From: Eledone cirrhosa
Lineage: Eukaryota
Length of the DNA stretch: 64,000 bases
Direction of reading: 5' to 3'
Assembly (NCBI GenBank): GCA_964016885.1
Contig: OZ024740.1
Span: forward strand, 217,744,001-217,808,000
Numbering within the stretch: position 1 is the stretch's first letter; each line of letters begins with the position of its first letter. The notes beneath the pieces are model-generated. The model saw only the letters and a list, made by a program, of their open reading frames with translations, was not told the DNA's origin and ran no database searches. A program made the translations under genes and the position numbers. This document shows positions 12,801 to 64,000 of this stretch, piece by piece.

Positions 12801-15800
12801 AATCGAATCGAATCGAATCGAATCGAATCGAATCGAATCGAATCGAATCGAATCGAATCGAATCGAATCGAATCGAATCGAATCGAATCGAATCGAATCG
12901 AATCGAATCGAATCGAATCGAATCGAATCGAATCGAATCGAATCGAATCGAATCGAATCGAATCGAATCGAATCGAATCGAATCGAATCGAATCGAATCG
13001 AATCGAATCGAATCGAATCGAATCGAATCGAATCGAATCGAATCGAATCGAATCGAATCGAATCGAATCGAATCGAATCGAATCGAATCGAATCGAATCG
13101 AATCGAATCGAATCGAATCGAATCGAATCGAATCGAATCGAATCGAATCGAATCGAATCGAATCGAATCGAATCGAATCGAATCGAATCGAATCGAATCG
13201 AATCGAATCGAATCGAATCGAATCGAATCGAATCGAATCGAATCGAATCGAATCGAATCGAATCGAATCGAATCGAATCGAATCGAATCGAATCGAATCG
13301 AATCGAATCGAATCGAATCGAATCGAATCGAATCGAATCGAATCGAATCGAATCGAATCGAATCGAATCGAATCGAATCGAATCGAATCGAATCGAATCG
13401 AATCGAATCGAATCGAATCGAATCGAATCGAATCGAATCGAATCGAATCGAATCGAATCGAATCGAATCGAATCGAATCGAATCGAATCGAATCGAATCG
13501 AATCGAATCGAATCGAATCGAATCGAATCGAATCGAATCGAATCGAATCGAATCGAATCGAATCGAATCGAATCGAATCGAATCGAATCGAATCGAATCG
13601 AATCGAATCGAATCGAATCGAATCGAATCGAATCGAATCGAATCGAATCGAATCGAATCGAATCGAATCGAATCGAATCGAATCGAATCGAATCGAATCG
13701 AATCGAATCGAATCGAATCGAATCGAATCGAATCGAATCGAATCGAATCGAATCGAATCGAATCGAATCGAATCGAATCGAATCGAATCGAATCGAATCG
13801 AATCGAATCGAATCGAATCGAATCGAATCGAATCGAATCGAATCGAATCGAATCGAATCGAATCGAATCGAATCGAATCGAATCGAATCGAATCGAATCG
13901 AATCGAATCGAATCGAATCGAATCGAATCGAATCGAATCGAATCGAATCGAATCGAATCGAATCGAATCGAATCGAATCGAATCGAATCGAATCGAATCG
14001 AATCGAATCGAATCGAATCGAATCGAATCGAATCGAATCGAATCGAATCGAATCGAATCGAATCGAATCGAATCGAATCGAATCGAATCGAATCGAATCG
14101 AATCGAATCGAATCGAATCGAATCGAATCGAATCGAATCGAATCGAATCGAATCGAATCGAATCGAATCGAATCGAATCGAATCGAATCGAATCGAATCG
14201 AATCGAATCGAATCGAATCGAATCGAATCGAATCGAATCGAATCGAATCGAATCGAATCGAATCGAATCGAATCGAATCGAATCGAATCGAATCGAATCG
14301 AATCGAATCGAATCGAATCGAATCGAATCGAATCGAATCGAATCGAATCGAATCGAATCGAATCGAATCGAATCGAATCGAATCGAATCGAATCGAATCG
14401 AATCGAATCGAATCGAATCGAATCGAATCGAATCGAATCGAATCGAATCGAATCGAATCGAATCGAATCGAATCGAATCGAATCGAATCGAATCGAATCG
14501 AATCGAATCGAATCGAATCGAATCGAATCGAATCGAATCGAATCGAATCGAATCGAATCGAATCGAATCGAATCGAATCGAATCGAATCGAATCGAATCG
14601 AATCGAATCGAATCGAATCGAATCGAATCGAATCGAATCGAATCGAATCGAATCGAATCGAATCGAATCGAATCGAATCGAATCGAATCGAATCGAATCG
14701 AATCGAATCGAATCGAATCGAATCGAATCGAATCGAATCGAATCGAATCGAATCGAATCGAATCGAATCGAATCGAATCGAATCGAATCGAATCGAATCG
14801 AATCGAATCGAATCGAATCGAATCGAATCGAATCGAATCGAATCGAATCGAATCGAATCGAATCGAATCGAATCGAATCGAATCGAATCGAATCGAATCG
14901 AATCGAATCGAATCGAATCGAATCGAATCGAATCGAATCGAATCGAATCGAATCGAATCGAATCGAATCGAATCGAATCGAATCGAATCGAATCGAATCG
15001 AATCGAATCGAATCGAATCGAATCGAATCGAATCGAATCGAATCGAATCGAATCGAATCGAATCGAATCGAATCGAATCGAATCGAATCGAATCGAATCG
15101 AATCGAATCGAATCGAATCGAATCGAATCGAATCGAATCGAATCGAATCGAATCGAATCGAATCGAATCGAATCGAATCGAATCGAATCGAATCGAATCG
15201 AATCGAATCGAATCGAATCGAATCGAATCGAATCGAATCGAATCGAATCGAATCGAATCGAATCGAATCGAATCGAATCGAATCGAATCGAATCGAATCG
15301 AATCGAATCGAATCGAATCGAATCGAATCGAATCGAATCGAATCGAATCGAATCGAATCGAATCGAATCGAATCGAATCGAATCGAATCGAATCGAATCG
15401 AATCGAATCGAATCGAATCGAATCGAATCGAATCGAATCGAATCGAATCGAATCGAATCGAATCGAATCGAATCGAATCGAATCGAATCGAATCGAATCG
15501 AATCGAATCGAATCGAATCGAATCGAATCGAATCGAATCGAATCGAATCGAATCGAATCGAATCGAATCGAATCGAATCGAATCGAATCGAATCGAATCG
15601 AATCGAATCGAATCGAATCGAATCGAATCGAATCGAATCGAATCGAATCGAATCGAATCGAATCGAATCGAATCGAATCGAATCGAATCGAATCGAATCG
15701 AATCGAATCGAATCGAATCGAATCGAATCGAATCGAATCGAATCGAATCGAATCGAATCGAATCGAATCGAATCGAATCGAATCGAATCGAATCGAATCG

Positions 15801-17676
15801 AATCGAATCGAATCGAATCGAATCGAATCGAATCGAATCGAATCGAATCGAATCGAATCGAATCGAATCGAATCGAATCGAATCGAATCGAATCGAATCG
15901 AATCGAATCGAATCGAATCGAATCGAATCGAATCGAATCGAATCGAATCGAATCGAATCGAATCGAATCGAATCGAATCGAATCGAATCGAATCGAATCG
16001 AATCGAATCGAATCGAATCGAATCGAATCGAATCGAATCGAATCGAATCGAATCGAATCGAATCGAATCGAATCGAATCGAATCGAATCGAATCGAATCG
16101 AATCGAATCGAATCGAATCGAATCGAATCGAATCGAATCGAATCGAATCGAATCGAATCGAATCGAATCGAATCGAATCGAATCGAATCGAATCGAATCG
16201 AATCGAATCGAATCGAATCGAATCGAATCGAATCGAATCGAATCGAATCGAATCGAATCGAATCGAATCGAATCGAATCGAATCGAATCGAATCGAATCG
16301 AATCGAATCGAATCGAATCGAATCGAATCGAATCGAATCGAATCGAATCGAATCGAATCGAATCGAATCGAATCGAATCGAATCGAATCGAATCGAATCG
16401 AATCGAATCGAATCGAATCGAATCGAATCGAATCGAATCGAATCGAATCGAATCGAATCGAATCGAATCGAATCGAATCGAATCGAATCGAATCGAATCG
16501 AATCGAATCGAATCGAATCGAATCGAATCGAATCGAATCGAATCGAATCGAATCGAATCGAATCGAATCGAATCGAATCGAATCGAATCGAATCGAATCG
16601 AATCGAATCGAATCGAATCGAATCGAATCGAATCGAATCGAATCGAATCGAATCGAATCGAATCGAATCGAATCGAATCGAATCGAATCGAATCGAATCG
16701 AATCGAATCGAATCGAATCGAATCGAATCGAATCGAATCGAATCGAATCGAATCGAATCGAATCGAATCGAATCGAATCGAATCGAATCGAATCGAATCG
16801 AATCGAATCGAATCGAATCGAATCGAATCGAATCGAATCGAATCGAATCGAATCGAATCGAATCGAATCGAATCGAATCGAATCGAATCGAATCGAATCG
16901 AATCGAATCGAATCGAATCGAATCGAATCGAATCGAATCGAATCGAATCGAATCGAATCGAATCGAATCGAATCGAATCGAATCGAATCGAATCGAATCG
17001 AATCGAATCGAATCGAATCGAATCGAATCGAATCGAATCGAATCGAATCGAATCGAATCGAATCGAATCGAATCGAATCGAATCGAATCGAATCGAATCG
17101 AATCGAATCGAATCGAATCGAATCGAATCGAATCGAATCGAATCGAATCGAATCGAATCGAATCGAATCGAATCGAATCGAATCGAATCGAATCGAATCG
17201 AATCGAATCGAATCGAATCGAATCGAATCGAATCGAATCGAATCGAATCGAATCGAATCGAATCGAATCGAATCGAATCGAATCGAATCGAATCGAATCG
17301 AATCGAATCGAATCGAATCGAATCGAATCGAATCGAATCGAATCGAATCGAATCGAATCGAATCGAATCGAATCGAATCGAATCGAATCGAATCGAATCG
17401 AATCGAATCGAATCGAATCGAATCGAATCGAATCGAATCGAATCGAATCGAATCGAATCGAATCGAATCGAATCGAATCGAATCGAATCGAATCGAATCG
17501 AATCGAATCGAATCGAATCGAATCGAATCGAATCGAATCGAATCGAATCGAATCGAATCGAATCGAATCGAATCGAATCGAATCGAATCGAATCGAATCG
17601 AATCGAATCGAATCGAATCGAATCGAATCGAATCGAATCGAATCGAATCGAATCGAATCGAATCGAATCGAATCGA
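6883..17676. repeat. (AATCG)n pentanucleotide satellite, ~10.8 kb, ~2,160 units
   Basis: No interruption seen. The ORF track reads through uninterrupted as (SNRIE)n and (DSIRF)n. Confidence 0.99.

Positions 17677-20544: not shown

Positions 20545-20548
<4 letters not shown>
19773..20548. mobile_element. Hairpin element (~310-bp arms) with asymmetric tail and a hammerhead in each arm (family D)
   Basis: Arms ~19831-20150 and ~20255-20548; tail 19773-19830. The terminus GTTATACTTTGGGAGGGTCAT is shared with the 19084 element. Confidence 0.85.
20335..20379 (+). ncRNA. Minimal hammerhead, family D (mirror copy at 20001-20045, minus strand)
   Basis: AGTCA-CTGAAGA-gGTCACA(gagtg)TGTGAC-GAAA-GGAC-TA^TGACT. 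Confidence 0.75.
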
Positions 20549-20634
<86 letters not shown>

Positions 20635-20696
20635 TATATATATATATTCATATATATACATATATTCATATATATATATATTCATATATATATATA

Positions 20697-20738
<42 letters not shown>

Positions 20739-20786
20739 TATATATATATACATATGAATATATGAATATATATATATATATATATA

Positions 20787-20868
<82 letters not shown>

Positions 20869-20904
20869 TATATATATATACATATGAATATATATATATA
20901 TATA

Positions 20905-20966
<62 letters not shown>

Positions 20967-21000
20967 TATATATATATATATATGAATATATATATATATA

Positions 21001-21078
<78 letters not shown>

Positions 21079-21082
<4 letters not shown>

Positions 21083-21208
21083 GATAGACATAGAATATTC
21101 GAAAATATTCTGTATGTTTATAATAAACATTTTGAAGACCTAATCGCTATAGAATAGAATACGTCACGTATTACAATTAGATTCTCGATAAAATTCAGAG
21201 CATTTAAT

Positions 21209-21210
<2 letters not shown>
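21079..21210. repeat. Dispersed truncated copy of the 310-bp satellite monomer, with a short inverted segment
   Basis: 21079-21193 matches 51046-51159. 21194-21210 (TTCAGAGCATTTAATCC) is the reverse complement of monomer GGAATAAATGCTCTGAA with 1 mismatch. Confidence 0.9.
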
Positions 21211-21246
<36 letters not shown>

Positions 21247-21318
21247 TATATATATATATATATATATTCATATATATATATATTCATATATATATATATA
21301 TTCATATATATATATATA

Positions 21319-21382
<64 letters not shown>

Positions 21383-21466
21383 TATATATATATATATTCA
21401 TATATATATATATATTCATATATATATATATTCATATATATATATATATTCATATATATATATATA

Positions 21467-21516
<50 letters not shown>

Positions 21517-21532
21517 TATATATATATATATA

Positions 21533-23350
21533 ACTTTGAATAACTTTGAAATGTTTTGGCCAGTATTGGCCCAGGCCATGTCTAACTTAATAGCACCACC
21601 TGGCGAAGTCTTTCAACTCAGGATTTGGACACCATGGCCCATTCGAGAAGAGAATTACTGTTTGCGGAGACATATCCGGGTGTGGGTGGTTTGTCCGGGA
21701 TTACTTGGAGGAATTTGTCCAAAGACTTCTTGAACTTTGTGTGGTCAGTTTCTATTTTGACGTGTCCTGGTGTGATGTTGAAGAGAGCAGGGCCAATTGA
21801 GGTGAAATAATTGTGCCGTATTGTTGTTTTGTGTTGCGATTTAGATTTTTGTTTGGGACGGATAGCACGGGGCCCAAGCATTGGGTGTATTTTGAAAGTG
21901 ATGCCAACATCATTTGGGCAGTGTTGATGAAATATTTTCCACATCATGCAGATAATATAACGCTCACGGAGACGTTGGAGTGAGTAAAGTTTCAGTTTTT
22001 CTAGTCGACCCCAGTAGTCAAGGTCTGACATGCCATGTATCTTTTTCGTGATTGCCCTTTGGGGAGCTTCAAGTTTCATGATACTTTGTTTCGTGTGGGG
22101 AGACCACAGTGGACAACAGTATTCAAGGTGTGGTCGGGAAAATGTGGAGAAGAGAAGGATAATGGTGTGGGAATCTCTCGACTGGAAGGTTCTGAGGATC
22201 CAGGAACACATTCTGCGGGCCATGTCAACTTTGCTGCTTATATGCGTGGCCCAGCTTATGTTGCTGTCCACGGTTACTCCCAAGTCTCTGATGTTGTTAG
22301 ATGCCACAAGAGGGAAGGGAGTACGGGAGTTTCAGAGCATCTTCTTTTCCAAAGTGGATCAGTTCGAATTGGTCTTCGTTCAGTAACATGTTGTTCTTTT
22401 CCGCCCATTGGGTAACAGCCAGTAGGTCTGACTGAAGGCTTATCCGGTCATCCACGCCATTGATGACCTTTTGGAGCTTGGAATCATCAGCGAAAATTCT
22501 AATGTTGCTGTGTTTGATGATGTCAGTGATGTCATTAATATAGATGATGAAGAGAAGTGGGCCCAACACAGTGCCTTGTGGGACCCCACTACTGACTTTG
22601 GCTGGGCTGGATTTGACTCCTTCGACTACAACATGTTGGGTTCTGTTTGACAGGAAGCTCTTGATCCACTGCAGCAGCTTTCCAGTGACACCAATATTGG
22701 ACAGCTTTCTCAGTAGAATGTTGTGATCAACCCTGTCAAAGGCCTTGCTGAAATCAAGGTAGATATCATCAGTGTTGGAACCCTCTCCCAAGGCTCTCAA
22801 AATGTCATCAAAGTGATGCAGTAGCTGCGCCAGGCAATCCCTTCCATTACGGAATAGATGCTGGTTGGAGTTCAGCATATTGTTACTCTCAAGGAAGTGA
22901 GTCATTCGCGATCTCACCACTCTCTCAAATACGTTAATGATATGAGAGGTGAGAGAGATTGGACGGTAATTCACCGCAAGGGATTTGTTTCCTTTTTTGA
23001 AAACTGTGACAACAGACTGGGATAGAAGGTTTTCTGGCATATATCCAGCATCCAGTGAGTTCCCCACAGATTGGCAAGAGGAGATGCAAGTTGGTGTTGA
23101 CACGCCTTCAAGACACAAGCAGGGAACCTATCGGGACCTACTGCTGAATTATGCTTGATTTCCTTTATTGCCGCTAAGACATCAGGGGCGCCAAACGTTA
23201 TGTCCGATAAGGTGTAATGGGGAGTAACATCGCCGATACAGCCCAGATCGGCCATATCAGGATTGCTGAAAACAGAGCAGTATTGTTTCTGCAGTATCTC
23301 ACCCATGGTTTTAGCATTGTCTTGAATAGTGCCATTTTCATCAATTAGAA
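21533..23350 (-). mobile_element. 5'-truncated CR1-group LINE (RT and C-terminal domain, frameshifted)
   Basis: NYRPISLTS, YLDFSKAFDRV, SGVPQGTVLGPLLF, FADD, RPHLEYCCPLWSP motifs in ORFs 22971-23306, 22297-23118 and 21618-22307. 3' end (TTCAAAGTTA)2 joins (TA)n. Confidence 0.9.
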
Positions 23351-23410
23351 TATATATGTTTCGAGATAAAATAAGTGTAAGGATATCATGTCCAGCTCTC
23401 TTCAGTAAAC
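23351..23410 (-). ncRNA. Partial hammerhead-like core (stem I 3' strand missing)
   Basis: CTGAAGA-GAG...CTC-GAAA-CATATATA, ending at the LINE 5' junction. Confidence 0.4.
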
Positions 23411-23704
23411 ATCCCGAACTAATTGATATGCTTCACTTCTAAATAATCTCGAAACATATTTGGATTTTAAAGTTTAAACTTATCTACGGAACAGGTTTGA
23501 TTTTGAAATTTAAATGTGTCTAAACATCACGGACACTTGGCGATACTGTCTGTCTTTGTTGATTTATTATTTTAAATCGATATAGGCAGGCTGTAATATT
23601 ATAATTAGTATGTTTCATTCTGGCTAACTAAATTTCTTTTGCAATATATATGCAGATATGTTGGTATTTGTGTTTCATCATATATATTAATTTATATTTA
23701 AATG

Positions 23705-23983: not shown

Positions 23984-25091
<1,108 letters not shown>

Positions 25092-27395: not shown

Positions 27396-28920
27396 TATAC
27401 ATGGAAAGTTATATTTAAATTGTTGGGTTACAACTAGTAAATATTTATAACTGATATAAAAGCACTCGACAAGTATTTGGAGTATATTTACGATATTAAA
27501 TAAATGGAAACTATAATTATAAAACCATATCTATTTCATTATATATATTTCAGGGATATCATATTAACAATATGCTATGCCTTCCTCAGATAAAATACAA
27601 TATAAACAGTTTTATAGATAAATAGATTTGACATACCGTACAACATCGACTTGTATTTGAAAAGTTGAATTGGCAGTGAAAAAATTGTAAACGGAAAGAA
27701 AGAAAGAGAGAAAAAAAAGAAAAGAAAGACAGAAAACGAAGAAAAAGAAGAAAAAGAAGAAATGCATGGAACAAAATAGAGAGCTGGAAAGATAGATAAA
27801 GAGAAGAACTTCATGTAAAGAAACAGAGAGAGATATATATAGAGAGAGGAAATAGATAGAGATAGATATATATATAGAAAAATATGTTGTTGGACATCCG
27901 TTGAGTAAACGTATCAATGATACATTTATTTATTTATTTATTTATTTAGCTCTAGTATTAATGTACGGGAGATATATGTGGTTAGGAGAGAAACCAGCTG
28001 TTATATAGAGAGAAAATGAAAAGTAACCAGACATAGGCGAGGCATAAAAATGTTTTAATGTAGAAGTATTAGTATGTATAAAAACCAGTCACTATATTGT
28101 AAATATCAGTATTCCTGAATGAGACACGTATCCATAATGTGTGAAAAGTAATGATCTTATGTTTAGTTTTAAAAAATTCATATGTTTATATGATAACTAC
28201 AAACATCGATGTGAATTTACATGATCAACTCTGCAAACCCTAAGTTCACACGGAAAACATTCTCATTGTGCTATAAAAATTTAAGTATACATATATGTGT
28301 ATATATATACACATATATATATAGAGTCTATATTACTACTATTCTTGTCTTTACTCTACAAGATTATCTATCAAGCAGAAATAGAGAGCAGATTTCAATA
28401 TATTAATAAAAAAAATATATATCAGAAACAAAAACCAAAAAATAACAATAATAATAATAATAAATAATAATAAAATAGAAAACTAAAAAATATTACGAAA
28501 AAATATTACATATTAAAAATATTACATATTAAAATAAAAATATTAGAAAATACTACAATAATAAAAATAAACCACAAAGATCAACCCTTCAAAATTAATT
28601 GACAATATATTGCCAAGTTCATTATAAGCATCAGAGTCTAAAACAGATAAAGCTAAACATTATTTATCAAATCGCATCTAGCAAAAATCATTTCAAAAAG
28701 TTTAGGATGCCCATTTGGTCTACATGTGTTATTATATTTAATATAGAGGTTTATCTAGTGTAACGTTTATTCGAAATATTTGGAGCATCAACTTTCAGGG
28801 TAGTTTAATTTTTCATGAAGAATGTTTAAACAAAAATAAAAATAAAAAGAAGAATAAAAAGAAGAAATCGAAAGATTTATCGGCTAGTTTCCCAGATAAT
28901 TATAAATCAAACTAAATATA

Positions 28921-30308
28921 CTACATTTTAAATTTAAATTTATATTTAAAAGTTGAGTTTAATCTATGTTTGCAGCAACTGAATAAATTTGTCCGTAGAT
29001 TAAGGGAATTTTTAGATTTTAGTATAAAGAATATCTCCTCTGCGCAGAGGTCACATGTCTCAGAGGATGAATTAAAAGGAATCCCTCTTGAGACTATATT
29101 CCAAGCCGTCGAATATCTAACGTTATCTAGCTTAAGTTGCCAGAGTACGCCTGATAGTGCCGTTGAAGATTATTTGCTTGAATCTGTGAAAGAATTCTTG
29201 TGGTTATTATAGCGAAGTTTAAATTCCGTCGATGTGGAACCGACGTAGTTAAAAGAATTAGAGTCAGTTTTAACATTACAATTGTATACTATATTTTTAA
29301 CTAAGCAGTTGTTATTTAACGGACATTTAGATCTATCTCTACAGTTACATTTGTTAACTTGTATATTATTTATGCTATTATCACTAGGTTTTAAGTTCCT
29401 ATTATTTATTCTATTAATATTTTGTGCTAAATTTTTGGTGGATGAGTAGGTTAATTTTATAGTATGTCTATTGAAAATTGAGTGATACCTATGTGTTCTA
29501 GGGAAGCGATTATCAAGAGCTTTAAAAAATAGTTTAGCGATGTGGGTTTTAATGTTTAGTGAGAAAGGGGGGGCAAACCAAATTATGTTCCTAGTTCTAT
29601 TTCTTTTTTGGCCTTTGGAATTATTGTAATGCTTTCTATTATAGTTGTTAAGGTTGTTGCCGTAATTAAAATAGTTGTTATTTTGTTTAGTTTGTCTATC
29701 ATTATCTATGTACATAATCTTATCAGTATATCCTGCTCTAGCTAAGCTAACGCTTCATTGTAGTACTGGGCTTTTTCATCGAAAATCTTTCTATTAGACG
29801 AGATTCTAGAGATACGTTTTTGAACAGAGTTTACTATAGTGTTTTTGACAGATCTGGGGTGGTTAGAGTTAAAGCTGACATAGTTTAAGTTTTCATTCAA
29901 CTTGTGAAAAGGATAGTGAAGACATGTGTTGAGATTTAATGTTATATCTAGGAAATTGACTATTCTATGGTTGTTCTCAATTTCTATTTTAAGATTAAAG
30001 TAATTAAAAAATTGTGTAATTTGTTTACATTTTCTATTTAGTTCAGAGTTATTATTATCAATAAGTAAAAGCATGTCATCTCTATATAAACCTCCGGTAG
30101 TACCAGGTATTTTCCTATGTAGCGAATTGATTAAAAATAATCCCACAAGGTCAGTTACCTGAGCTGAGTCGGATGATCCCATAGTAATGTCAAAATTGCT
30201 ATCTCTATCTGCTCTGGTCCATAGTTGGTCATTAAATTCTATCAATGTTTTCCTAGCCGATAATATAATATGCATTTCATTGCTAGTTAGGTCTGTATGT
30301 TTACTCAA
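28921..30308 (-). pseudogene. PLE reverse transcriptase plus GIY-YIG endonuclease, disrupted
   Basis: DITMGSSDSAQVTDLVG, LYRDD, VNFLDITL, YVSFNSNHP; linker CNCRDRSKCPL; IVY...YVGST..FKLRYNNH. Stops at 29742 and 29170. Confidence 0.9.
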
Positions 30309-30611
30309 CGGATGTCCAACTACATATTTTTCTATATATATATCTATCTCTATCTATTTCCTCTCTCTATATATATCTCTCTCTGTTTCTTTACATGAAG
30401 TTCTTCTCTTTATCTATCTTTCCATCTCTCTATTTTGTTCCATGCATTTCTTCTTTTTCTTCTTTTTCTTCGTTTTCTGTCTTTCTTTTCTTTTTTTTCT
30501 CTCTTTCTTTCTTTCCGTTTACAATTTTTTCACTGCCAATTCAACTTTTCAAATACAAGTCGATGTTGTACGGTATGTCAAATCTATTTATCTATAAAAC
30601 TGTTTATATTG

Positions 30612-30677
30612 TATTTTATCTGAGGAAGGCATAGCATATTGTTAATATGATATCCCTGAAATATATATAATGAAATA
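30612..30677 (+). ncRNA. Hammerhead, family E, in PLE pseudo-LTR (other copies: 27532-27597 -, 34491-34555 -, 46613-46678 -, 46797-46862 +, 49707-49772 -)
   Basis: TATTTTAT-CTGAGGA-AGGcATAgCATATT(gtt)AATATGaTATcCCT-GAAA-TATATA-TA^ATGAAATA. Confidence 0.85.
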
Positions 30678-30720
30678 GATATGGTTTTATAAATATAGTT
30701 TCCATTTATTTAATATCGAT

Positions 30721-40533: not shown

Positions 40534-40573
40534 AATAAATTCTATATACCCGCATTTCCATTTCGTAAATTTT

Positions 40574-50790: not shown

Positions 50791-50828
<38 letters not shown>

Positions 50829-50970
50829 TATATATATATATATATTCATATATATATATATATATTCATATATATATATATGTATTCATATATATATATA
50901 TATATATATTCATATATATATATATATATTCATATATATATTTATATATATATTCAGATATATATATATA

Positions 50971-51045
<75 letters not shown>

Positions 51046-54000
51046 GAATATAGACATAGAATATTCGAAAATATTCTGTATGTTTATAATAAACATTTTG
51101 AAGACCTAATCGCTATAGAATAGAATACGTCACGTATTACAATTAGATTCTCGATAAAAGCAAGGGAAGTAATCTACGCGTTTCATTCTTATTAGAAATC
51201 TTCAGGACTACATATCCAGTGCTTTTATCGAGAATGACACAGCTAGAGACTTATAGAATACTTAGCTGTGTACAGGAACTGGTTTGAAAGGGCGGTTGCC
51301 GGTCCGGCAGAAATTAGAAATTGGAATAAATGCTCTGAAATAGCGATATATATGTGAATATAGACATAGAATATTCGAAAATATTCTGTATGTTTATAAT
51401 AAACATTTTGAAGACCTAATCGCTATAGAATAGAATACGTCATGTATTACAATTAGATTCTCGATAAAAGCAAGGGAAGTAATCTACGCGTTTCATTCTT
51501 ATTAGAAATCTTCAGGACTACATATCCAGTGCTTTTATCGAGAATGACACAGCTAGAGACTTATAGAATACTTAGCTGTGTACAGGAACTGGTTTGAAAG
51601 AGCGGTTGCCGGTCTGGCAGAAATTAGAAATTGGAATAAATGCTCTGAAATAGCGATATATATGTGAATATAGACATAGAATATTCGAAAATATTCTGTA
51701 TGTTTATAATAAACATTTTGAAGACCTAATCGCTATAGAATAGAATACGTCACGTATTACAATTAGATTCTCGATAAAAGTAAGGGAAGTAATCTACGCG
51801 TTTCATTCTTATTAGAAATCTTCAGGACTACATATCCAGTGCTTTTATCGAGAATGACACAGCTAGAGACTTATAGAATACTTAGCTGTGTACAGGAACT
51901 GGTTTGAAAGAGCGGTTGCCGGTCCGGCAGAAATTAGAAATTGGAATAAATGCTCTGAAATAGCGATATATATGTGAATATAGACATAGAATATTCGAAA
52001 ATATTCTGTATGTTTATAATAAACATTTTGAAGACCTAATCGCTATAGAATAGAATACGTCACGTATTACAATTAGATTCTCGATAAAAGTAAGGGAAGT
52101 AATCTACGCGTTTCATTCTTATTAGAAATCTTCAGGACTACATATCCAGTGCTTTTATCGAGAATGACACAGCTAGAGACTTATAGAATACTTAGCTGTG
52201 TACAGGAACTGGTTTGAAAGAGCGGTTGCCGGTCCGGCAGAAATTAGAAATTGGAATAAATGCTCTGAAATAGCGATATATATGTGAATATAGACATAGA
52301 ATATTCGAAAATATTCTGTATGTTTATAATAAACATTTTGAAGACCTAATCGCTATAGAATAGAATACGTCACGTATTACAATTAGATTCTCGATAAAAG
52401 CAAGGGAAGTAATCTACGCGTTTCATTCTTATTAGAAATCTTCAGGACTACATATCCAGTGCTTTTATCGAGAATGACACAGCTAGAGACTTATAGAATA
52501 CTTAGCTGTGTACAGGAACTGGTTTGAAAGAGCGGTTGCCGGTCCGGCAGAAATTAGAAATTGGAATAAATGCTCTGAAATAGCGATATATATGTGAATA
52601 TAGACATAGAATATTCGAAAATATTCTGTATGTTTATAATAAACATTTTGAAGACCTAATCGCTATAGAATAGAATACGTCACGTATTACAATTAGATTC
52701 TCGATAAAAGCAAGGGAAGTAATCTACGCGTTTCATTCTTATTAGAAATCTTCAGGACTACATATCCAGTGCTTTTATCGAGAATGACACAGCTAGAGAC
52801 TTATAGAATACTTAGCTGTGTACATGAACTGGTTTGAAAGAGCGGTTGCCGGTCCGGCAGAAATTAGAAATTGGAATAAATGCTCTGAAATAGCGATATA
52901 TATGTGAATATAGACATAGAATATTCGAAAATATTCTGTATGTTTATAATAAACATTTTGAAGACCTAATCGCTATAGAATAGAATACGTCACGTATTAC
53001 AATTAGATTCTCGATAAAAGTAAGGGAAGTAATCTACGCGTTTCATTCTTATTAGAAATCTTCAGGACTACATATCCAGTGCTTTTATCGAGAATGACAC
53101 AGCTAGAGACTTATAGAATACTTAGCTGTGTACAGGAACTGGTTTGAAAGAGCGGTTGCCGGTCCGGCAGAAATTAGAAATTGGAATAAATGCTCTGAAA
53201 TAGCGATATAAATGTGAATATAGACATAGAATATTCGAAAATATTCTGTATGTTTATAATAAACATTTTGAAGACCTAATCGCTATAGAATAGAATACGT
53301 CACGTATTACAATTAGATTCTCGATAAAAGCAAGGGAAGTAATCTACGCGTTTCATTCTTATTAGAAATCTTCAGGACTACATATCCAGTGGTTTTATCG
53401 AGAATGACACAGCTAGAGACTTATAGAATACTTAGCTGTGTACAGGAACTGGTTTGAAAGAGCGGTTGCCGGTCCGGCAGAAATTAGAAATTGGAATAAA
53501 TGCTCTGAAATAGCGATATATATGTGAATATAGACATAGAATATTCGAAAATATTCTGTATGTTTATAATAAACATTTTGAAGACCTAATCGCTATAGAA
53601 TAGAATACGTCACGTATTACAATTAGATTCTCGATAAAAGCAAGGGAAGTAATCTACGCGTTTCATTCTTATTAGAAATCTTCAGGACTACATATCCAGT
53701 GCTTTTATCGAGAATGACACAGCTAGAGACTTATAGAATACTTAGCTGTGTACAGGAACTGGTTTGAAAGAGCGGTTGCCGGTCCGGCAGAAATTAGAAA
53801 TTGGAATAAATGCTCTGAAATAGCGATATATATGTGAATATAGACATAGAATATTCGAAAATATTCTGTATGTTTATAATAAACATTTTGAAGACCTAAT
53901 CGCTATAGAATAGAATACGTCACGTATTACAATTAGATTCTCGATAAAAGCAAGGGAAGTAATCTACGCGTTTCATTCTTATTAGAAATCTTCAGGACTA

Positions 54001-57000
54001 CATATCCAGTGCTTTTATCGAGAATGACACAGCTAGAGACTTATAGAATACTTAGCTGTGTACATGAACTGGTTTGAAAGAGCGGTTGCCGGTCCGGCAG
54101 AAATTAGAAATTGGAATAAATGCTCTGAAATAGCGATATATATGTGAATATAGACATAGAATATTCGAAAATATTCTGTATGTTTATAATAAACATTTTG
54201 AAGACCTAATCGCTATAGAATAGAATACGTCACGTATTACAATTAGATTCTCGATAAAAGTAAGGGAAGTAATCTACGCGTTTCATTCTTATTAGAAATC
54301 TTCAGGACTACATATCCAGTGCTTTTATCGAGAATGACACAGCTAGAGACTTATAGAATACTTAGCTGTGTACAGGAACTGGTTTGAAAGAGCGGTTGCC
54401 GGTCCGGCAGAAATTAGAAATTGGAATAAATGCTCTGAAATAGCGATATATATGTGAATATAGACATAGAATATTCGAAAATATTCTGTATGTTTATAAT
54501 AAACATTTTGAAGACCTAATCGCTATAGAATAGAATACGTCACGTATTACAATTAGATTCTCGATAAAAGTAAGGGAAGTAATCTACGCGTTTCATTCTT
54601 ATTAGAAATATTCAGGACTGCATATCCAGTGCTTTTATCGAGAATGACACAGCTAGAGACTTATAGAATACTTAGCTGTGTACAGGAACTGGTTTGAAAG
54701 AGCGGTTGCCGGTCCGGCAGAAATTAGAAATTGGAATAAATGCTCTGAAATAGCGATATATATGTGAATATAGACATAGAATATTCGAAAATATTCTGTA
54801 TGTTTATAATAAACATTTTGAAGACCTAATCGCTATAGAATAGAATACGTCACGTATTACAATTAGATTCTCGATAAAAGTAAGGGAAGTAATCTACGCG
54901 TTTCATTCTTATTAGAAATCTTCAGGACTACATATCCAGTGGTTTTATCGAGAATGACACAGCTAGAGACTTATAGAATACTTAGCTGTGTACAGGAACT
55001 GGTTTGAAAGAGCGGTTGCCGGTCCGGCAGAAATTAGAAATTGGAATAAATGCTCTGAAATAGCGATATATATGTGAATATAGACATAGAATATTCGAAA
55101 ATATTCTGTATGTTTATAATAAACATTTTGAAGACCTAATCGCTATAGAATAGAATACGTCACGTATTACAATTAGATTCTCGATAAAAGCAAGGGAAGT
55201 AATCTACGCGTTTCATTCTTATTAGAAATCTTCAGGACTACATATCCAGTGCTTTTATCGAGAATGACACAGCTAGAGACTTATAGAATACTTAGCTGTG
55301 TACAGGAACTGGTTTGAAAGAGCGGTTGCCGGTCCGGCAGAAATTAGAAATTGGAATAAATGCTCTGAAATAGCGATATATATGTGAATATAGACATAGA
55401 ATATTCGAAAATATTCTGTATGTTTATAATAAACATTTTGAAGACCTAATCGCTATAGAATAGAATACGTCACGTATTACAATTAGATTCTCGATAAAAG
55501 CAAGGGAAGTAATCTACGCGTTTCATTCTTATTAGAAATCTTCAGGACTACATATCCAGTGCTTTTATCGAGAATGACACAGCTAGAGACTTATAGAATA
55601 CTTAGCTGTGTACATGAACTGGTTTGAAAGAGCGGTTGCCGGTCCGGCAGAAATTAGAAATTGGAATAAATGCTCTGAAATAGCGATATATATGTGAATA
55701 TAGACATAGAATATTCGAAAATATTCTGTATGTTTATAATAAACATTTTGAAGACCTAATCGCTATAGAATAGAATACGTCACGTATTACAATTAGATTC
55801 TCGATAAAAGTAAGGGAAGTAATCTACGCGTTTCATTCTTATTAGAAATCTTCAGGACTACATATCCAGTGCTTTTATCGAGAATGACACAGCTAGAGAC
55901 TTATAGAATACTTAGCTGTGTACAGGAACTGGTTTGAAAGAGCGGTTGCCGGTCCGGCAGAAATTAGAAATTGGAATAAATGCTCTGAAATAGCGATATA
56001 AATGTGAATATAGACATAGAATATTCGAAAATATTCTGTATGTTTATAATAAACATTTTGAAGACCTAATCGCTATAGAATAGAATACGTCACGTATTAC
56101 AATTAGATTCTCGATAAAAGCAAGGGAAGTAATCTACGCGTTTCATTCTTATTAGAAATCTTCAGGACTACATATCCAGTGCTTTTATCGAGAATGACAC
56201 AGCTAGAGACTTATAGAATACTTAGCTGTGTACAGGAACTGGTTTGAAAGAGCGGTTGCCGGTCCGGCAGAAATTAGAAATTGGAATAAATGCTCTGAAA
56301 TAGCGATATATATGTGAATATAGACATAGAATATTCGAAAATATTCTGTATGTTTATAATAAACATTTTGAAGACCTAATCGCTATAGAATAGAATACGT
56401 CACGTATTACAATTAGATTCTCGATAAAAGCAAGGGAAGTAATCTACGCGTTTCATTCTTATTAGAAATCTTCAGGACTACATATCCAGTGCTTTTATCG
56501 AGAATGACACAGCTAGAGACTTATAGAATACTTAGCTGTGTACAGGAACTGGTTTGAAAGAGCGGTTGCCGGTCCGGCAGAAATTAGAAATTGGAATAAA
56601 TGCTCTGAAATAGCGATATATATGTGAATATAGACATAGAATATTCGAAAATATTCTGTATGTTTATAATAAACATTTTGAAGACCTAATCGCTATAGAA
56701 TAGAATACGTCACGTATTACAATTAGATTCTCGATAAAAGCAAGGGAAGTAATCTACGCGTTTCATTCTTATTAGAAATCTTCAGGACTACATATCCAGT
56801 GCTTTTATCGAGAATGACACAGCTAGAGACTTATAGAATACTTAGCTGTGTACATGAACTGGTTTGAAAGAGCGGTTGCCGGTCCGGCAGAAATTAGAAA
56901 TTGGAATAAATGCTCTGAAATAGCGATATATATGTGAATATAGACATAGAATATTCGAAAATATTCTGTATGTTTATAATAAACATTTTGAAGACCTAAT

Positions 57001-60000
57001 CGCTATAGAATAGAATACGTCACGTATTACAATTAGATTCTCGATAAAAGTAAGGGAAGTAATCTACGCGTTTCATTCTTATTAGAAATCTTCAGGACTA
57101 CATATCCAGTGCTTTTATCGAGAATGACACAGCTAGAGACTTATAGAATACTTAGCTGTGTACAGGAACTGGTTTGAAAGAGCGGTTGCCGGTCCGGCAG
57201 AAATTAGAAATTGGAATAAATGCTCTGAAATAGCGATATATATGTGAATATAGACATAGAATATTCGAAAATATTCTGTATGTTTATAATAAACATTTTG
57301 AAGACCTAATCGCTATAGAATAGAATACGTCACGTATTACAATTAGATTCTCGATAAAAGTAAGGGAAGTAATCTACGCGTTTCATTCTTATTAGAAATC
57401 TTCAGGACTACATATCCAGTGCTTTTATCGAGAATGACACAGCTAGAGACTTATAGAATACTTAGCTGTGTACAGGAACTGGTTTGAAAGAGCGGTTGCC
57501 GGTCCGGCAGAAATTAGAAATTGGAATAAATGCTCTGAAATAGCGATATATATGTGAATATAGACATAGAATATTCGAAAATATTCTGTATGTTTATAAT
57601 AAACATTTTGAAGACCTAATCGCTATAGAATAGAATACGTCACGTATTACAATTAGATTCTCGATAAAAGCAAGGGAAGTAATCTACGCGTTTCATTCTT
57701 ATTAGAAATCTTCAGGACTACATATCCAGTGCTTTTATCGAGAATGACACAGCTAGAGACTTATAGAATACTTAGCTGTGTACATGAACTGGTTTGAAAG
57801 AGCGGTTGCCGGTCCGGCAGAAATTAGAAATTGGAATAAATGCTCTGAAATAGCGATATATATGTGAATATAGACATAGAATATTCGAAAATATTCTGTA
57901 TGTTTATAATAAACATTTTGAAGACCTAATCGCTATAGAATAGAATACGTCACGTATTACAATTAGATTCTCGATAAAAGTAAGGGAAGTAATCTACGCG
58001 TTTCATTCTTATTAGAAATCTTCAGGACTACATATCCAGTGCTTTTATCGAGAATGACACAGCTAGAGACTTATAGAATACTTAGCTGTGTACAGGAACT
58101 GGTTTGAAAGAGCGGTTGCCGGTCCGGCAGAAATTAGAAATTGGAATAAATGCTCTGAAATAGCGATATATATGTGAATATAGACATAGAATATTCGAAA
58201 ATATTCTGTATGTTTATAATAAACATTTTGAAGACCTAATCGCTATAGAATAGAATACGTCACGTATTACAATTAGATTCTCGATAAAAGTAAGGGAAGT
58301 AATCTACGCGTTTCATTCTTATTAGAAATCTTCAGGACTACATATCCAGTGCTTTTATCGAGAATGACACAGCTAGAGACTTATAGAATACTTAGCTGTG
58401 TACAGGAACTGGTTTGAAAGAGCGGTTGCCGGTCCGGCAGAAATTAGAAATTGGAATAAATGCTCTGAAATAGCGATATATATGTGAATATAGACATAGA
58501 ATATTCGAAAATATTCTGTATGTTTATAATAAACATTTTGAAGACCTAATCGCTATAGAATAGAATACGTCACGTATTACAATTAGATTCTCGATAAAAG
58601 TAAGGGAAGTAATCTACGCGTTTCATTCTTATTAGAAATCTTCAGGACTACATATCCAGTGCTTTTATCGAGAATGACACAGCTAGAGACTTATAGAATA
58701 CTTAGCTGTGTACAGGAACTGGTTTGAAAGAGCGGTTGCCGGTCCGGCAGAAATTAGAAATTGGAATAAATGCTCTGAAATAGCGATATATATGTGAATA
58801 TAGACATAGAATATTCGAAAATATTCTGTATGTTTATAATAAACATTTTGAAGACCTAATCGCTATAGAATAGAATACGTCACGTATTACAATTAGATTC
58901 TCGATAAAAGCAAGGGAAGTAATCTACGCGTTTCATTCTTATTAGAAATCTTCAGGACTACATATCCAGTGCTTTTATCGAGAATGACACAGCTAGAGAC
59001 TTATAGAATACTTAGCTGTGTACAGGAACTGGTTTGAAAGAGCGGTTGCCGGTCCGGCAGAAATTAGAAATTGGAATAAATGCTCTGAAATAGCGATATA
59101 AATGTGAATATAGACATAGAATATTCGAAAATATTCTGTATGTTTATAATAAACATTTTGAAGACCTAATCGCTATAGAATAGAATACGTCACGTATTAC
59201 AATTAGATTCTCGATAAAAGCAAGGGAAGTAATCTACGCGTTTCATTCTTATTAGAAATCTTCAGGACTACATATCCTGTGTTTTATCGAGAATGACACA
59301 GCTTGAGACTTATAGAATACTTAGCTGTGTACAGGAACTGGTTTGAAAGAGCGGTTGCCGGTCCGGCAGAAATTAGAAATTGGAATAAATGCTCTGAAAT
59401 AGCGATATATATGTGAATATAGACATAGAATATTCGCAAATATTCTGTATGTTTATAATAAACATTTTGAAGACCTAATCGCTATAGAATAGAATACGTC
59501 ACGTATTACAATTAGATTCTCGATAAAAGCAAGGGAAGTAATCTACGCGTTTCATTCTTATTAGAAATCTTCAGGACTACATATCCAGTGCTTTTATCGA
59601 GAATGACACAGCTAGAGACTTATAGAATACTTAGCTGTGTACATGAACTGGTTTGAAAGAGCGGTTGCCGGTCCGGCAGAAATTAGAAATTGGAATAAAT
59701 GCTCTGAAATAGCGATATATATGTGAATATAGACATAGAATATTCGAAAATATTCTGTATGTTTATAATAAACATTTTGAAGACCTAATCGCTATAGAAT
59801 AGAATACGTCACGTATTACAATTAGATTCTCGATAAAAGTAAGGGAAGTAATCTACGCGTTTCATTCTTATTAGAAATCTTCAGGACTACATATCCAGTG
59901 CTTTTATCGAGAATGACACAGCTAGAGACTTATAGAATACTTAGCTGTGTACAGGAACTGGTTTGAAAGAGCGGTTGCCGGTCCGGCAGAAATTAGAAAT

Positions 60001-63000
60001 TGGAATAAATGCTCTGAAATAGCGATATATATGTGAATATAGACATAGAATATTCGCAAATATTCTGTATGTTTATAATAAACATTTTGAAGACCTAATC
60101 GCTATAGAATAGGATACGTCACGTATTACAATTAGATTCTCGATAAAAGTAAGGGAAGTAATCTACGCGTTTCATTCTTATTAGAAATCTTCAGGATTAC
60201 ATATCCAGTGCTTTTATCGAGAATGACACAGCTAGAGACTTATAGAATACTTAGCTGTGTACAGGAACTGGTTTGAAAGAGCGGTTGCCGGTCCGGCAGA
60301 AATTAGAAATTGGAATAAATGCTCTGAAATAGCGATATATATGTGAATATAGACATAGAATATTCGAAAATATTCTGTATGTTTATAATAAACATTTTGA
60401 AGACCTAATCGCTATAGAATAGAATACGTCACGTATTACAATTAGATTCTCGATAAAAGTAAGGGAAGTAATCTACGCGTTTCATTCTTATTAGAAATCT
60501 TCAGGACTACATATCCAGTGCTTTTATCGAGAATGACACAGCTAGAGACTTATAGAATACTTAGCTGTGTACAGGAACTGGTTTGAAAGAGCGGTTGCCG
60601 GTCCGGCAGAAATTAGAAATTGGAATAAATGCTCTGAAATAGCGATATATATGTGAATATAGACATAGAATATTCGAAAATATTCTGTATGTTTATAATA
60701 AACATTTTGAAGACCTAATCGCTATAGAATAGAATACGTCACGTATTACAATTAGATTCTCGATAAAAGCAAGGGAAGTAATCTACGCGTTTCATTCTTA
60801 TTAGAAATCTTCAGGACTACATATCCAGTGCTTTTATCGAGAATGACACAGCTAGAGACTTATAGAATACTTAGCTGTGTACAGGAACTGGTTTGAAAGA
60901 GCGGTTGCCGTTCCGGCAGAAATTAGAAATTGGAATAAATGCTCTGAAATAGCGATATATATGTGAATATAGACATAGAATATTCGAAAATATTCTGTAT
61001 GTTTATAATAAACATTTTGAAGACCTAATCGCTATAGAATAGAATACGTCACGTATTACAATTAGATTCTCGATAAAAGTAAGGGAAGTAATCTACGCGT
61101 TTCATTCTTATTAGAAATCTTCAGGACTACATATCCAGTGCTTTTATCGAGAATGACACAGCTAGAGACTTATAGAATACTTAGCTGTGTACAGGAACTG
61201 GTTTGAAAGAGCGGTTGCCGGTCCGGCAGAAATTAGAAATTGGAATAAATGCTCTGAAATAGCGATATATATGTGAATATAGACATAGAATATTCGAAAA
61301 TATTCTGTATGTTTATAATAAACATTTTGAAGACCTAATCGCTATAGAATAGAATACGTCACGTATTACAATTAGATTCTCGATAAAAGCAAGGGAAGTA
61401 ATCTACGCGTTTCATTCTTATTAGAAATCTTCAGGACTACATATCCAGTGCTTTTATCGAGAATGACACAGCTAGAGACTTATAGAATACTTAGCTGTGT
61501 ACATGAACTGGTTTGAAAGAGCGGTTGCCGGTCCGGCAGAAATTAGAAATTGGAATAAATGCTCTGAAATAGCGATATATATGTGAATATAGACATAGAA
61601 TATTCGAAAATATTCTGTATGTTTATAATAAACATTTTGAAGACCTAATCGCTATAGAATAGAATACGTCACGTATTACAATTAGATTCTCGATAAAAGT
61701 AAGGGAAGTAATCTACGCGTTTCATTCTTATTAGAAATCTTCAGGACTACATATCCAGTGCTTTTATCGAGAATGACACAGCTAGAGACTTATAGAATAC
61801 TTAGCTGTGTACAGGAACTGGTTTGAACGAGCGGTTGCCGGTCCGGCAGAAATTAGAAATTGGAATAAATGCTCTGAAATAGCGATATATATGTGAATAT
61901 AGACATAGAATATTCGCAAATATTCTGTATGTTTATAATAAACATTTTGAAGACCTAATCGCTATAGAATAGAATACGTCACGTATTACAATTAGATTCT
62001 CGATAAAAGTAAGGGAAGTAATCTACGCGTTTCATTCTTATTAGAAATCTTCAGGACTACATATCCAGTGCTTTTATCGAGAATGACACAGCTAGAGACT
62101 TATAGAATACTTAGCTGTGTACAGGAACTGGTTTGAAAGAGCGATCGCCGGTCCGGCAGAAATTAGAAATTGGAATAAATGCTCTGAAATAGCGATATAT
62201 ATGTGAATATAGACATAGAATATTCGAAAATATTCTGTATGTTTATAATAAACATTTTGAAGACCTAATCGCTATAGAATAGAATACGTCACGTATTACA
62301 ATTAGATTCTCGATAAAAGTAAGGGAAGTAATCTACGCGTTTCATTCTTATTAGAAATCTTCAGGACTACATATCCAGTGCTTTTATCGAGAATGACACA
62401 GCTAGAGACTTATAGAATACTTAGCTGTGTACAGGAACTGGTTTGAAAGAGCGGTTGCCGGTCCGGCAGAAATTAGTAATTGGAATAAATGCTCTGAAAT
62501 AGCGATATATATGTGAATATAGACATAGAATATTCGAAAATATTCTGTATGTTTATAATAAACATTTTGAAGACCTAATCGCTATAGAATAGAATACGTC
62601 ACGTATTACAATTAGATTCTCGATAAAAGTAAGGGAAGTAATCTACGCGTTTCATTCTTATTAGAAATCTTCAGGACTACATATCCAGTGCTTTTATCGA
62701 GAATGACACAGCTAGAGACTTATAGAATACTTAGCTGTGTACAGGAACTGGTTTGAAAGAGCGGTTGCCGGTCCGGCAGAAATTAGAAATTGGAATAAAT
62801 GCTCTGAAATAGCGATATATATGTGAATATAGACATAGAATATTCGAAAATATTCTGTATGTTTATAATAAACATTTTGAAGACCTAATCGCTATAGAAT
62901 AGAATACGTCACGTATTACAATTAGATTCTCGATAAAAGCAAGGGAAGTAATCTACGCGTTTCATTCTTATTAGAAATCTTCAGGACTACATATCCAGTG

Positions 63001-64000
63001 CTTTTATCGAGAATGACACAGCTAGAGACTTATAGAATACTTAGCTGTGTACAGGAACTGGTTTGAAAGAGCGGTTGCCGGTCCGGCAGAAATTAGAAAT
63101 TGGAATAAATGCTCTGAAATAGCGATATATATGTGAATATAGACATAGAATATTCGAAAATATTCTGTATGTTTATAATAAACATTTTGAAGACCTAATC
63201 GCTATAGAATAGAATACGTCACGTATTACAATTAGATTCTCGATAAAAGCAAGGGAAGTAATCTACGCGTTTCATTCTTATTAGAAATCTTCAGGACTAC
63301 ATATCCAGTGCTTTTATCGAGAATGACACAGCTAGAGACTTATAGAATACTTAGCTGTGTACAGGAACTGGTTTGAAAGAGCGGTTGCCGGTCCGGCAGA
63401 AATTAGAAATTGGAATAAATGCTCTGAAATAGCGATATATATGTGAATATAGACATAGAATATTCGCAAATATTCTGTATGTTTATAATAAACATTTTGA
63501 AGACCTAATCGCTATAGAATAGGATACGTCACGTATTACAATTAGATTCTCGATAAAAGTAAGGGAAGTAATCTACGCGTTTCATTCTTATTAGAAATCT
63601 TCAGGATTACATATCCAGTGCTTTTATCGAGAATGACACAGCTAGAGACTTATAGAATACTTAGCTGTGTACAGGAACTGGTTTGAAAGAGCGGTTGCCG
63701 GTCCGGCAGAAATTAGAAATTGGAATAAATGCTCTGAAATAGCGATATATATGTGAATATAGACATAGAATATTCGAAAATATTCTGTATGTTTATAATA
63801 AACATTTTGAAGACCTAATCGCTATAGAATAGAATACGTCACGTATTACAATTAGATTCTCGATAAAAGTAAGGGAAGTAATCTACGCGTTTCATTCTTA
63901 TTAGAAATCTTCAGGACTACATATCCAGTGCTTTTATCGAGAATGACACAGCTAGAGACTTATAGAATACTTAGCTGTGTACAGGAACTGGTTTGAAAGA
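51046..64000 (-). repeat. 310-bp tandem satellite, ~42 near-identical copies, continuing beyond the window
   Basis: TAGACATAGA at 51051, 51361, 51671 and so on. One 1-bp deletion near 59281. Confidence 0.99.
51169..51211 (-). ncRNA. Minimal type I hammerhead in the satellite monomer (repeats every 310 bp; 42 cores, the last at 63878)
   Basis: Minus strand: GTAGTC-CTGAAGA-tTTCT(aata)AGAAt-GAAA-CGCG-TA^GATTAC, enclosed by a 16-bp stem (51147-51162 with 51220-51235). Confidence 0.88.

What the first reader, a model, noticed from the sequence alone, without database searches (positions are those of the whole stretch)
21079..21210. Dispersed satellite fragment with the same end point and an inverted template-switch segment: the monomer is mobile
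Seen: a 115-bp piece of the monomer sits alone in (TA)n, 30 kb from the array. It begins at the same monomer position as the array's left edge (...TATATGAA.ATAGACATAG) and ends in a 17-bp inverted segment from elsewhere in the monomer. That shared end lies beside the monomer's own TATATATGTGAATA tract. Inference: a shared 3' end (minus sense), 5' truncation and a 5' inversion are what target-primed reverse transcription by a PLE produces. The array may have started as such an insertion, possibly by rolling-circle RT.
Basis: partly seen in the sequence, partly recalled or inferred. Interest (0 to 1): 0.72.

Follow-up and report, generated by a model that had tools for sequence, protein, structure and literature searches.

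The report
Smallest two-armed insertion of a retrozyme
This 132-base scrap is a very short insertion of an abundant non-coding jumping repeat that carries a predicted self-cutting RNA motif, and its back-to-back shape, shared by 88 of 88 fully read two-armed copies, suggests that a Penelope-type enzyme likely copies one RNA circle into both ends of a DNA break.

Summary
The fragment is real, and the "satellite" is a mobile element. Each 310-bp unit carries a type I hammerhead motif on its minus strand, which makes it an animal non-LTR retrozyme. One 24-mer occurs 19,768 times, at an estimated 2,000-2,600 loci. Insertions sit in (TA)n as two 5'-truncated arms joined head to head. Each arm ends at its own fixed point (A or B, about 26-35 nt apart), the Penelope "tail" signature. 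Of 106 loci on 149 Mb, 88 have two arms, all A+B; 17 have one arm; 1 is unresolved. The 17-bp piece is not a random template switch: it is the whole B arm. The fragment carries two variants absent from the neighbouring array, so it is an independent insertion. That array has the same A+B ends and was later expanded locally. In 44 of 51 loci no variant is shared by a subset of units, while loci differ tenfold more, which favours a one-unit (circular) template. No coding partner was found, and cleavage and circles are untested. This scan reported the same family from other windows of this genome.

The parts
21079..21193 (-). Arm A of the mini-insertion (monomer q306-310 plus q1-110); RNA sense is the minus strand, fixed 3' end A at the left edge, 5'-truncated at q110; lacks the hammerhead
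21194..21210 (+). Arm B of the mini-insertion (monomer q290 to q274), 17 bp, ending at the second fixed 3' end B; head-to-head junction with arm A, blunt or 1-nt overlap
   Evidence: end-B pattern
20548..21078 (.). (TA)n target, left flank
21211..21532 (.). (TA)n target, right flank
51036..64000 (-). Arm A of a large insertion of the same retrozyme (about 46.5 units; continues 1,455 bp past the window, flips, then a 603-bp B arm ending at q268 in (TA)n); later expanded by local duplication
51169..51211 (-). Type I hammerhead motif of the first array unit (q120-162; predicted cut between 51175 and 51174); repeated every 310 bp
   Evidence: motif scan; weak Rfam HH9 match 51155-51220 below the gathering score; fold; pair counts
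50794..51045 (.). (TA)n target left of the array

Best explanation
The fragment is a complete but very short insertion of a non-coding, 310-base hammerhead repeat (an animal non-LTR retrozyme), likely made by a borrowed Penelope-type reverse transcriptase/endonuclease that primes on both strands of a cut in (TA)n and likely copies one RNA circle from two fixed start points. Shown: tandem unit with a hammerhead motif, thousands of dispersed loci, (TA)n flanks, two head-to-head arms, one A end and one B end per two-armed locus, units nearly identical within a locus. Inferred: multimer transcripts self-cleave and are ligated to circles; a GIY-YIG endonuclease nicks both strands; one reverse transcriptase starts at B and the other at A, 26-35 nt upstream; each runs round the circle for 10 bp to several kb; the two cDNAs are joined through 0-5 nt of microhomology or a few extra bases. 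Here both stopped early (115 and 17 nt), so the copy has no ribozyme and cannot spread. The 14-kb array started the same way and then grew by local duplication.
For: Fixed ends: 767 (B) and 753 (A) reverse-strand matches next to TA runs, 0 for an internal control position. 43 of 43 convergent end pairs on C1:0-149 Mb are A+B. Of the 63 unpaired ends, 45 proved to be A+B two-armed loci, 17 one-armed and 1 unresolved. A sample chosen by an internal 24-mer, blind to ends: 11 of 14 loci A+B, 3 one-armed. Tiny second arms recur (L200, L213, L034). The tail at one end, the inverted 5'-truncated copy and the TA preference are described PLE features (PMC8557442 passages), and the tail lies between two RT start sites (PMC11167929). 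One-unit template: 44 of 51 two-armed loci with at least 4 pieces have no variant shared by a subset of units; 32 haplotypes in 52 loci; 0.10% within against 1.09% between loci; 8 loci have an allele unique in the sample and fixed in both arms. 543 passages through the predicted cut in 75 loci show no unit-specific indel at the cut, and arm 5' ends are not enriched there (2 of 144, about 5 expected). RNA stage: in the 310-type, locus-fixed changes are A>G 10 to U>C 2 in RNA sense, single-unit changes 3 to 9 (p=0.012). Unit folds better than 100 of 100 shuffles (z -3.66).
Against: No coding PLE with this repeat as its terminal repeat among 50 GIY-YIG loci examined out of 10,596 candidates, so the enzyme is inferred from the footprint only. 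Seven of 51 loci do have shared variants: in L179 and L196/L230 one arm changes haplotype midway, and in L185, L220 and L071 one variant occurs once in each arm, which fits multimeric or mixed templates. The Rfam match is far below the gathering score (18 against 52 bits), the isolated motif does not fold better than shuffles, and no pair shows a two-sided compensatory change. In the one PLE tested in vitro, hammerhead cleavage was not needed and uncut RNA was the main template (PMC11167929). 8 of 9 Xenopus retrozyme dimers did not cleave in vitro (10.64898/2026.07.22.740005). The A>G test was done after seeing the data and is polarised by majority only.
Confidence: 0.75

Rival explanations
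1. Same PLE-driven two-arm insertion, but the template is an uncut linear multimer read through from an existing array; the hammerhead is a passenger and circles are rare or irrelevant.
For: Uncut RNA was the main substrate for the anole PLE. Three loci carry one variant once in each arm (L185, L220, L071). Seamless passage of the cut site fits uncut RNA as well as a circle. Young source arrays would themselves be uniform.
Against: Without a one-unit bottleneck, variation inside arrays should accumulate, yet it is a tenth of that between loci and 98 of 108 within-locus variants are single-unit. Arrays would shrink each generation, yet arms of 15 or more units are seen. Ribozyme variants in stem I keep pairing on one side in 14 cells and break it in 1.
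Confidence: 0.15
2. The enzyme copies cleaved linear monomers and jumps from the 5' end of one to the 3' end of the same or another molecule, so multimers arise by template jumping rather than rolling.
For: Haplotype switches inside one arm (L179, L230) and same-strand jumps (L087, L073) show that jumping occurs. Three of 75 loci carry a fixed 1-nt insertion 2-3 nt behind the predicted cut.
Against: No unit-specific indel at the cut in 543 passages. Arm 5' ends do not pile up at the cut. Jumps between molecules would mix the 32 haplotypes far more often than 7 of 51 loci.
Confidence: 0.06
3. DNA-level dispersal of an ordinary satellite: pieces of arrays are copied into breaks in (TA)n by repair with fold-back, or by reinsertion of extrachromosomal circles.
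For: The window array shows local duplication (9 shared variants, repeated blocks). End A lies in a TA tract that could pair with the target.
Against: End B has no TA tract in the monomer yet is fixed (44 of 77 at q271, all within q262-274). Every flip has the same polarity, with RNA 3' ends outward. The A+B rule, the hammerhead and the strand-biased A>G changes are not expected. An unrelated RT/GIY-YIG element in the same window has the same two-arm, two-end shape (27405-30718).
Confidence: 0.04

Closest known systems
Animal non-LTR retrozymes (coral, mussel, axolotl; PMC7229834, passages read; review PMC7761336, passages; survey 10.64898/2026.07.22.740005, abstract to discussion read)
   Same: Tandem 150-450-bp, low-GC, non-coding units with one type I hammerhead each, many dispersed loci, highly self-paired predicted RNA. 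Helix III can be drawn as one pair capped by a palindromic tetraloop, as described for the axolotl HHR_Amex1 motif.
   Different: Those papers propose PLE help and circle templating but, in the parts read, describe no insertion footprint. Here nearly every locus has fixed PLE-type ends, two head-to-head arms and one haplotype. Cleavage and circles were shown there and are untested here. No PLE terminal repeat homologous to this unit was found, unlike 24 of 57 Xenopus families.
Endonuclease-bearing Penelope-like elements, insertion anatomy (PMC8557442 passages; PMC11167929 main text)
   Same: 5'-truncated copies, inverted copy at the 5' end, 30-40-bp tail often at one end only, two adjacent RT start sites inside the RNA, AT-rich or (TA)n targets, hammerhead upstream of the start sites.
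   Different: No ORF. The unit is a 310-nt repeat copied up to tens of times. The one-A-one-B pairing held in 88 of 88 two-armed loci, whereas the in vitro study saw no start-site difference between strands.
Non-autonomous Chlamys elements such as MRC1 (PMC8557442 passage)
   Same: Non-coding PLE dependants with multicopy head-to-tail insertions.
   Different: Those resemble an autonomous family at the 3' end and most Chlamys lack canonical hammerheads; here the ribozyme is present and the partner unknown.
L1 twin priming (recalled, no call)
   Same: Both target strands prime on one RNA and give an inverted segment.
   Different: No poly(A) tail. The second priming site is fixed next to the first rather than at a variable internal place, and both arms can be multimeric.

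Membership tests
Animal non-LTR retrozyme | Tandem units of about 150-450 bp, GC below 50% | tested here: met
   310-bp period, GC about 0.335
Animal non-LTR retrozyme | Type I hammerhead motif in each unit | tested here: met
   Complete core, 6-bp stem I, 4-5-bp stem II, minimal stem III; Rfam HH9 only 18 bits against 52. The 132-bp fragment itself lacks the motif.
Animal non-LTR retrozyme | No coding capacity | tested here: met
   Longest stop-to-stop frame 59 aa; no tRNA-like part found
Animal non-LTR retrozyme | Many dispersed loci | tested here: met
   19,768 exact 24-mer matches, control 0; about 1,500 A and 1,500 B ends in TA
Animal non-LTR retrozyme | Self-cleavage of the RNA | not testable with these tools
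   Needs in vitro transcription of monomer and dimer
Animal non-LTR retrozyme | Expression as a circular monomer | not testable with these tools
   Needs RNA reads or northern blots; only genomic evidence for a one-unit template here
PLE-type insertion | 30-40-bp tail at one end (two RT start sites) | tested here: met
   End B mode q271, end A q297-306, so 26-35 nt; one of each in 88 of 88 two-armed loci
PLE-type insertion | Inverted 5'-truncated copy joined at the 5' end | tested here: met
   72 junctions, spread over the unit, mostly 0-5 nt overlap or short extra bases
PLE-type insertion | AT-rich or (TA)n target | tested here: met
   (TA)n covers 22% of window 17700-51000, so the background is high locally
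PLE-type insertion | Autonomous PLE sharing the terminal repeat | tested here: inconclusive
   None among 50 of 10,596 GIY-YIG candidates; long RT + GIY-YIG frames exist (L152 938 aa, L154 1096 aa)
Autonomous Penelope-like element | ORF with RT and GIY-YIG domains | tested here: not met
Classical satellite DNA | Few long arrays with arbitrary ends, spread at DNA level | tested here: not met
   Paired loci span 0.2-15 kb with fixed ends; only the window array shows clear local amplification

The most novel reading that the evidence does not exclude
The genome records the full animal retrozyme cycle: a Penelope-type enzyme dimer holds one ADAR-edited RNA circle and starts two reverse transcriptions on it at obligately different sites, one per target strand. 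Each insertion is therefore a clone of one circle, and a 132-bp scrap and a 15-kb satellite are the shortest and longest outcomes of the same reaction. The retrozyme would use the enzyme without sharing recognisable sequence with its terminal repeat.
Probability: 0.45. Interest if true: 0.78.

Novelty: new member of a known kind. Interest (0 to 1): 0.57.

Why it matters
How animal retrozymes get into DNA is stated as open in the 2020 and 2026 papers read: PLE help and circle templating are proposals. This family is very young and abundant, and gives countable footprints for both: the one-A-one-B rule and single-haplotype arrays. They define an RNA substrate, two start sites and a target for an in vitro test with the long-ORF PLEs of the same genome. 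The strict pairing also constrains how any PLE integrates, and the window array shows a satellite being born from a retrotransposition event. The fragment itself is an inert by-product.

Tried and rejected
Autonomous partner: BLAST and a profile of this family and its sister against 50 GIY-YIG loci and the window found only retrozyme copies and short hammerhead-core likeness; not found, not excluded. RNA: no RNA holder listed. Contigs of four coded runs cover the monomer part but none spans the locus; uninformative. A hotspot of arm 5' ends near q98-113 (20 of 144) is not claimed: 7 come from loci found with a query ending there, and exact-match extension stops at the common q112 variant. For the same reason one more junction (L186) may fall near the cut. 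The A>G test for the 312-bp subfamily is discarded, as is the pooled p-value, because the reference was a dimer and counted sites twice. Forward-strand counts double-count matches, so only reverse counts were used. A possible A+A locus (L216) proved one-armed. A possible hybrid (L229) is two adjacent insertions. Target-site duplications could not be read in (TA)n. Rfam microRNA matches at the array edge are TA artefacts. The idea that the fragment broke off the neighbouring array was rejected. Literature: six searches listed no paper describing a retrozyme with PLE tails and paired arms; subscription journals are not covered. Supplements were not opened (PMC7229834 Fig. S9, PMC11167929 Fig. 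S2, PMC8557442 file S1, the bioRxiv tables) and may bear on novelty and on the partner.

Full report
Observation. The fragment lies inside a (TA)n tract (20548-21532). With q1 = window 51670, bases 21084-21193 equal q1-110 exactly, and 21194-21210 are the reverse complement of q274-290. The array at 51036-64000 has a 310-bp period and begins at the same end. The 17-mer match is not chance (about 3e-5). The fragment differs from the array at q310 and q277. None of the array's units has either variant, while locus L034 on another contig matches the 115 bp and the 17 bp exactly. The fragment is therefore an independent insertion from another haplotype.

What the unit is. The minus strand holds a complete type I hammerhead core with a 6-bp stem I, a 4-5-bp stem II and a minimal stem III with a palindromic loop (predicted cut between q126 and q125). 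Rfam gives only a weak HH9 match (18 bits, gathering 52) and the isolated motif does not beat shuffles. The whole unit does (z -3.66). Among 17 ribozyme haplotypes, chosen by a pattern that required the core, stem I changes keep pairing in 14 cells and break it in 1, with no two-sided change. The unit is non-coding and about 33.5% GC. These are the features of animal non-LTR retrozymes (PMC7229834, passages). A 314-bp sister family with a different hammerhead shares the region around both ends and shows the same two ends.

Abundance and anatomy. One internal 24-mer has 19,768 exact matches (control 0). Its first 100 matches fall in 14 loci on 30 Mb: 11 have two arms and 3 one arm. Read in RNA sense, both outer ends are 3' ends and the inner junction joins two truncated 5' ends. 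The outer ends are fixed. End A lies in the unit's TA tract (q297-306). End B lies at q271 in 44 of 77 cases and always within q262-274 (the pattern only looks just upstream of that window, and two shorter B ends at q276-280 were seen). TA-anchored patterns give 767 B and 753 A matches on the reverse strand alone, and 0 for an internal position. On C1:0-149 Mb there were 75 A and 74 B ends. 43 convergent pairs, called from position and mostly not fetched, are all A+B (p about 1e-13 against free choice). Reading the 63 unpaired ends gave 45 more A+B loci, 17 one-armed loci and 1 cut by a gap. Scaling this density, or dividing 19,768 by about 7.5 matches per locus, gives roughly 2,000-2,600 loci (estimate). 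Second arms of 10-19 bp recur (L200, L213, L034). The 17-bp piece is thus the B arm of a 132-bp two-armed insertion, shorter than any of the 43 pairs (214 bp to 15 kb). The window array is the long extreme: about 46.5 units from end A, one flip, 603 bp, end B in (TA)n.

Which enzyme. A 30-40-bp tail often at one end only, an inverted 5'-truncated copy and (TA)n preference are described for Penelope-like elements (PMC8557442, passages). For the anole element the tail is the stretch between two RT start sites inside the RNA, and both DNA strands are cut and extended (PMC11167929, main text). A and B are 26-35 nt apart and about 130 and 165 nt downstream of the predicted cut, in keeping with this. 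An RT/GIY-YIG element in the same window has the same shape with an 86-nt tail (27405-30718). The genome has 10,596 GIY-YIG candidates and long RT + GIY-YIG frames. None of 50 loci examined carries this unit as its terminal repeat. Three loci join a retrozyme arm directly to the end of another hammerhead element (L040, L072, L085), a hint of shared machinery that was not tested against chance. PLE mobilisation is inferred, with high confidence; the family is unknown.

Which template. In 51 two-armed loci with at least 4 pieces, 44 have no variant shared by a subset of units; 98 of 108 within-locus variants are single-unit. The 52 loci (with the window's) hold 32 haplotypes; distance is 0.10% within and 1.09% between 310-type loci; 8 loci have a sample-unique allele in every piece of both arms, for example 20 of 20 in L087. 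This needs a one-unit bottleneck at or near each insertion, which a circle provides. Arms cross the predicted cut 543 times in 75 loci without a unit-specific indel there, and 5' ends are not enriched at it, which argues against cleaved linear monomers. Locus-fixed changes lean to A>G in RNA sense (10 against 2 U>C) while single-unit changes do not (3 against 9; p=0.012). This fits editing of an RNA intermediate, but was tested after the fact. Against a pure circle model: L179 and L196/L230 change haplotype inside one arm, and L185, L220 and L071 carry one variant once in each arm. Uncut RNA was also the main template in the one PLE assay. The window array is unlike the rest (0.65% within, 9 shared variants, repeated blocks), as expected from later local duplication.

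Comparison and novelty. The kind is known: retrozymes, their proposed dependence on PLEs (10.64898/2026.07.22.740005, parts 1-3 of 5 read) and circle templating as a model (PMC7229834; PMC7761336). Both the 2020 review and the 2026 preprint leave the mechanism open. Six searches listed no paper with this footprint for a retrozyme; supplements were not read. Earlier notes of this scan describe the same 310-bp family and reading in other windows of this genome; my reading was recorded before them and they are not independent support. One of them prompted the junction-scar test.

Verdict. Observation confirmed, interpretation largely right but with the 17-bp piece reassigned. New member of a known kind, with unusually direct genomic evidence on an open mechanism. 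Confidence: retrozyme moved by a PLE-type enzyme about 0.95; circle as the usual template about 0.75-0.8. Interest 0.57.

Noticed in passing
window 27405-30718: Two-armed insertion of an RT/GIY-YIG Penelope-like element (broken frames 29170-30353, minus strand) with a hammerhead in its end repeat; arms 99.4% alike over 335 bp, one end 86 nt longer. Further end copies at 34450, 46482-46903, 49575.
   Followed up: partly
window 2052-2652 and 24389-25090; L162:8055-9092: Another hammerhead repeat family (about 425-500-bp period) with two arms and two fixed ends; weak profile match to the 310-bp family (E about 0.001).
   Followed up: partly
L083:3582-3896, L089:1374-1776, L092-L121: Older 314-bp sister retrozyme with a different hammerhead and the same two ends; 2,904 first-look candidates.
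   Followed up: partly
L040:1154-1950, L072:940-1599, L085:1100-1964: Hybrid insertions in which a retrozyme arm is joined without (TA)n to the end repeat of another hammerhead element.
   Followed up: partly
L152:3809-6622 (-), L154:1775-5062 (+), L155:3722-5629 (-): Long open RT + GIY-YIG frames (938, 1096, 636 aa); the L152 family has several near-identical copies and (TA)n-flanked ends, so it may be active.
   Followed up: partly
window 6883-17676: 10.8-kb perfect pentanucleotide array (2,159 copies, 100% matches), beside short 27- and 32-bp repeats at 6469-6885.
   Followed up: no
window 38415-39896 (+), 45042-45677 (+): Two more diverged Penelope-like frames (66% alike to each other), the second with a weak GIY-YIG match.
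   Followed up: partly
window 21532-23432 and 40519-42216; 31153-34046: LINE-type reverse transcriptase copies; the first two are 96% alike over 1.5 kb in opposite orientation.
   Followed up: no
L174:1271-1540: 270 bp of unrelated GC-rich sequence between the two arms, not found in other fetched loci: capture during joining or a later insertion.
   Followed up: partly
L028-L030 (G000:C14:25.02-25.29 Mb): Retrozyme pieces carried inside a larger repeated unit (segmental tandem), so some copies spread at DNA level.
   Followed up: no
runs X4, X5, X6 (window:51670-52289): Three runs with other organism codes (B, C, D) hold 77% of the sampled words; X4 and X6 have a 340-base contig at 99% or more. 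Close relatives, relabelled samples or transfer were not told apart.
   Followed up: no
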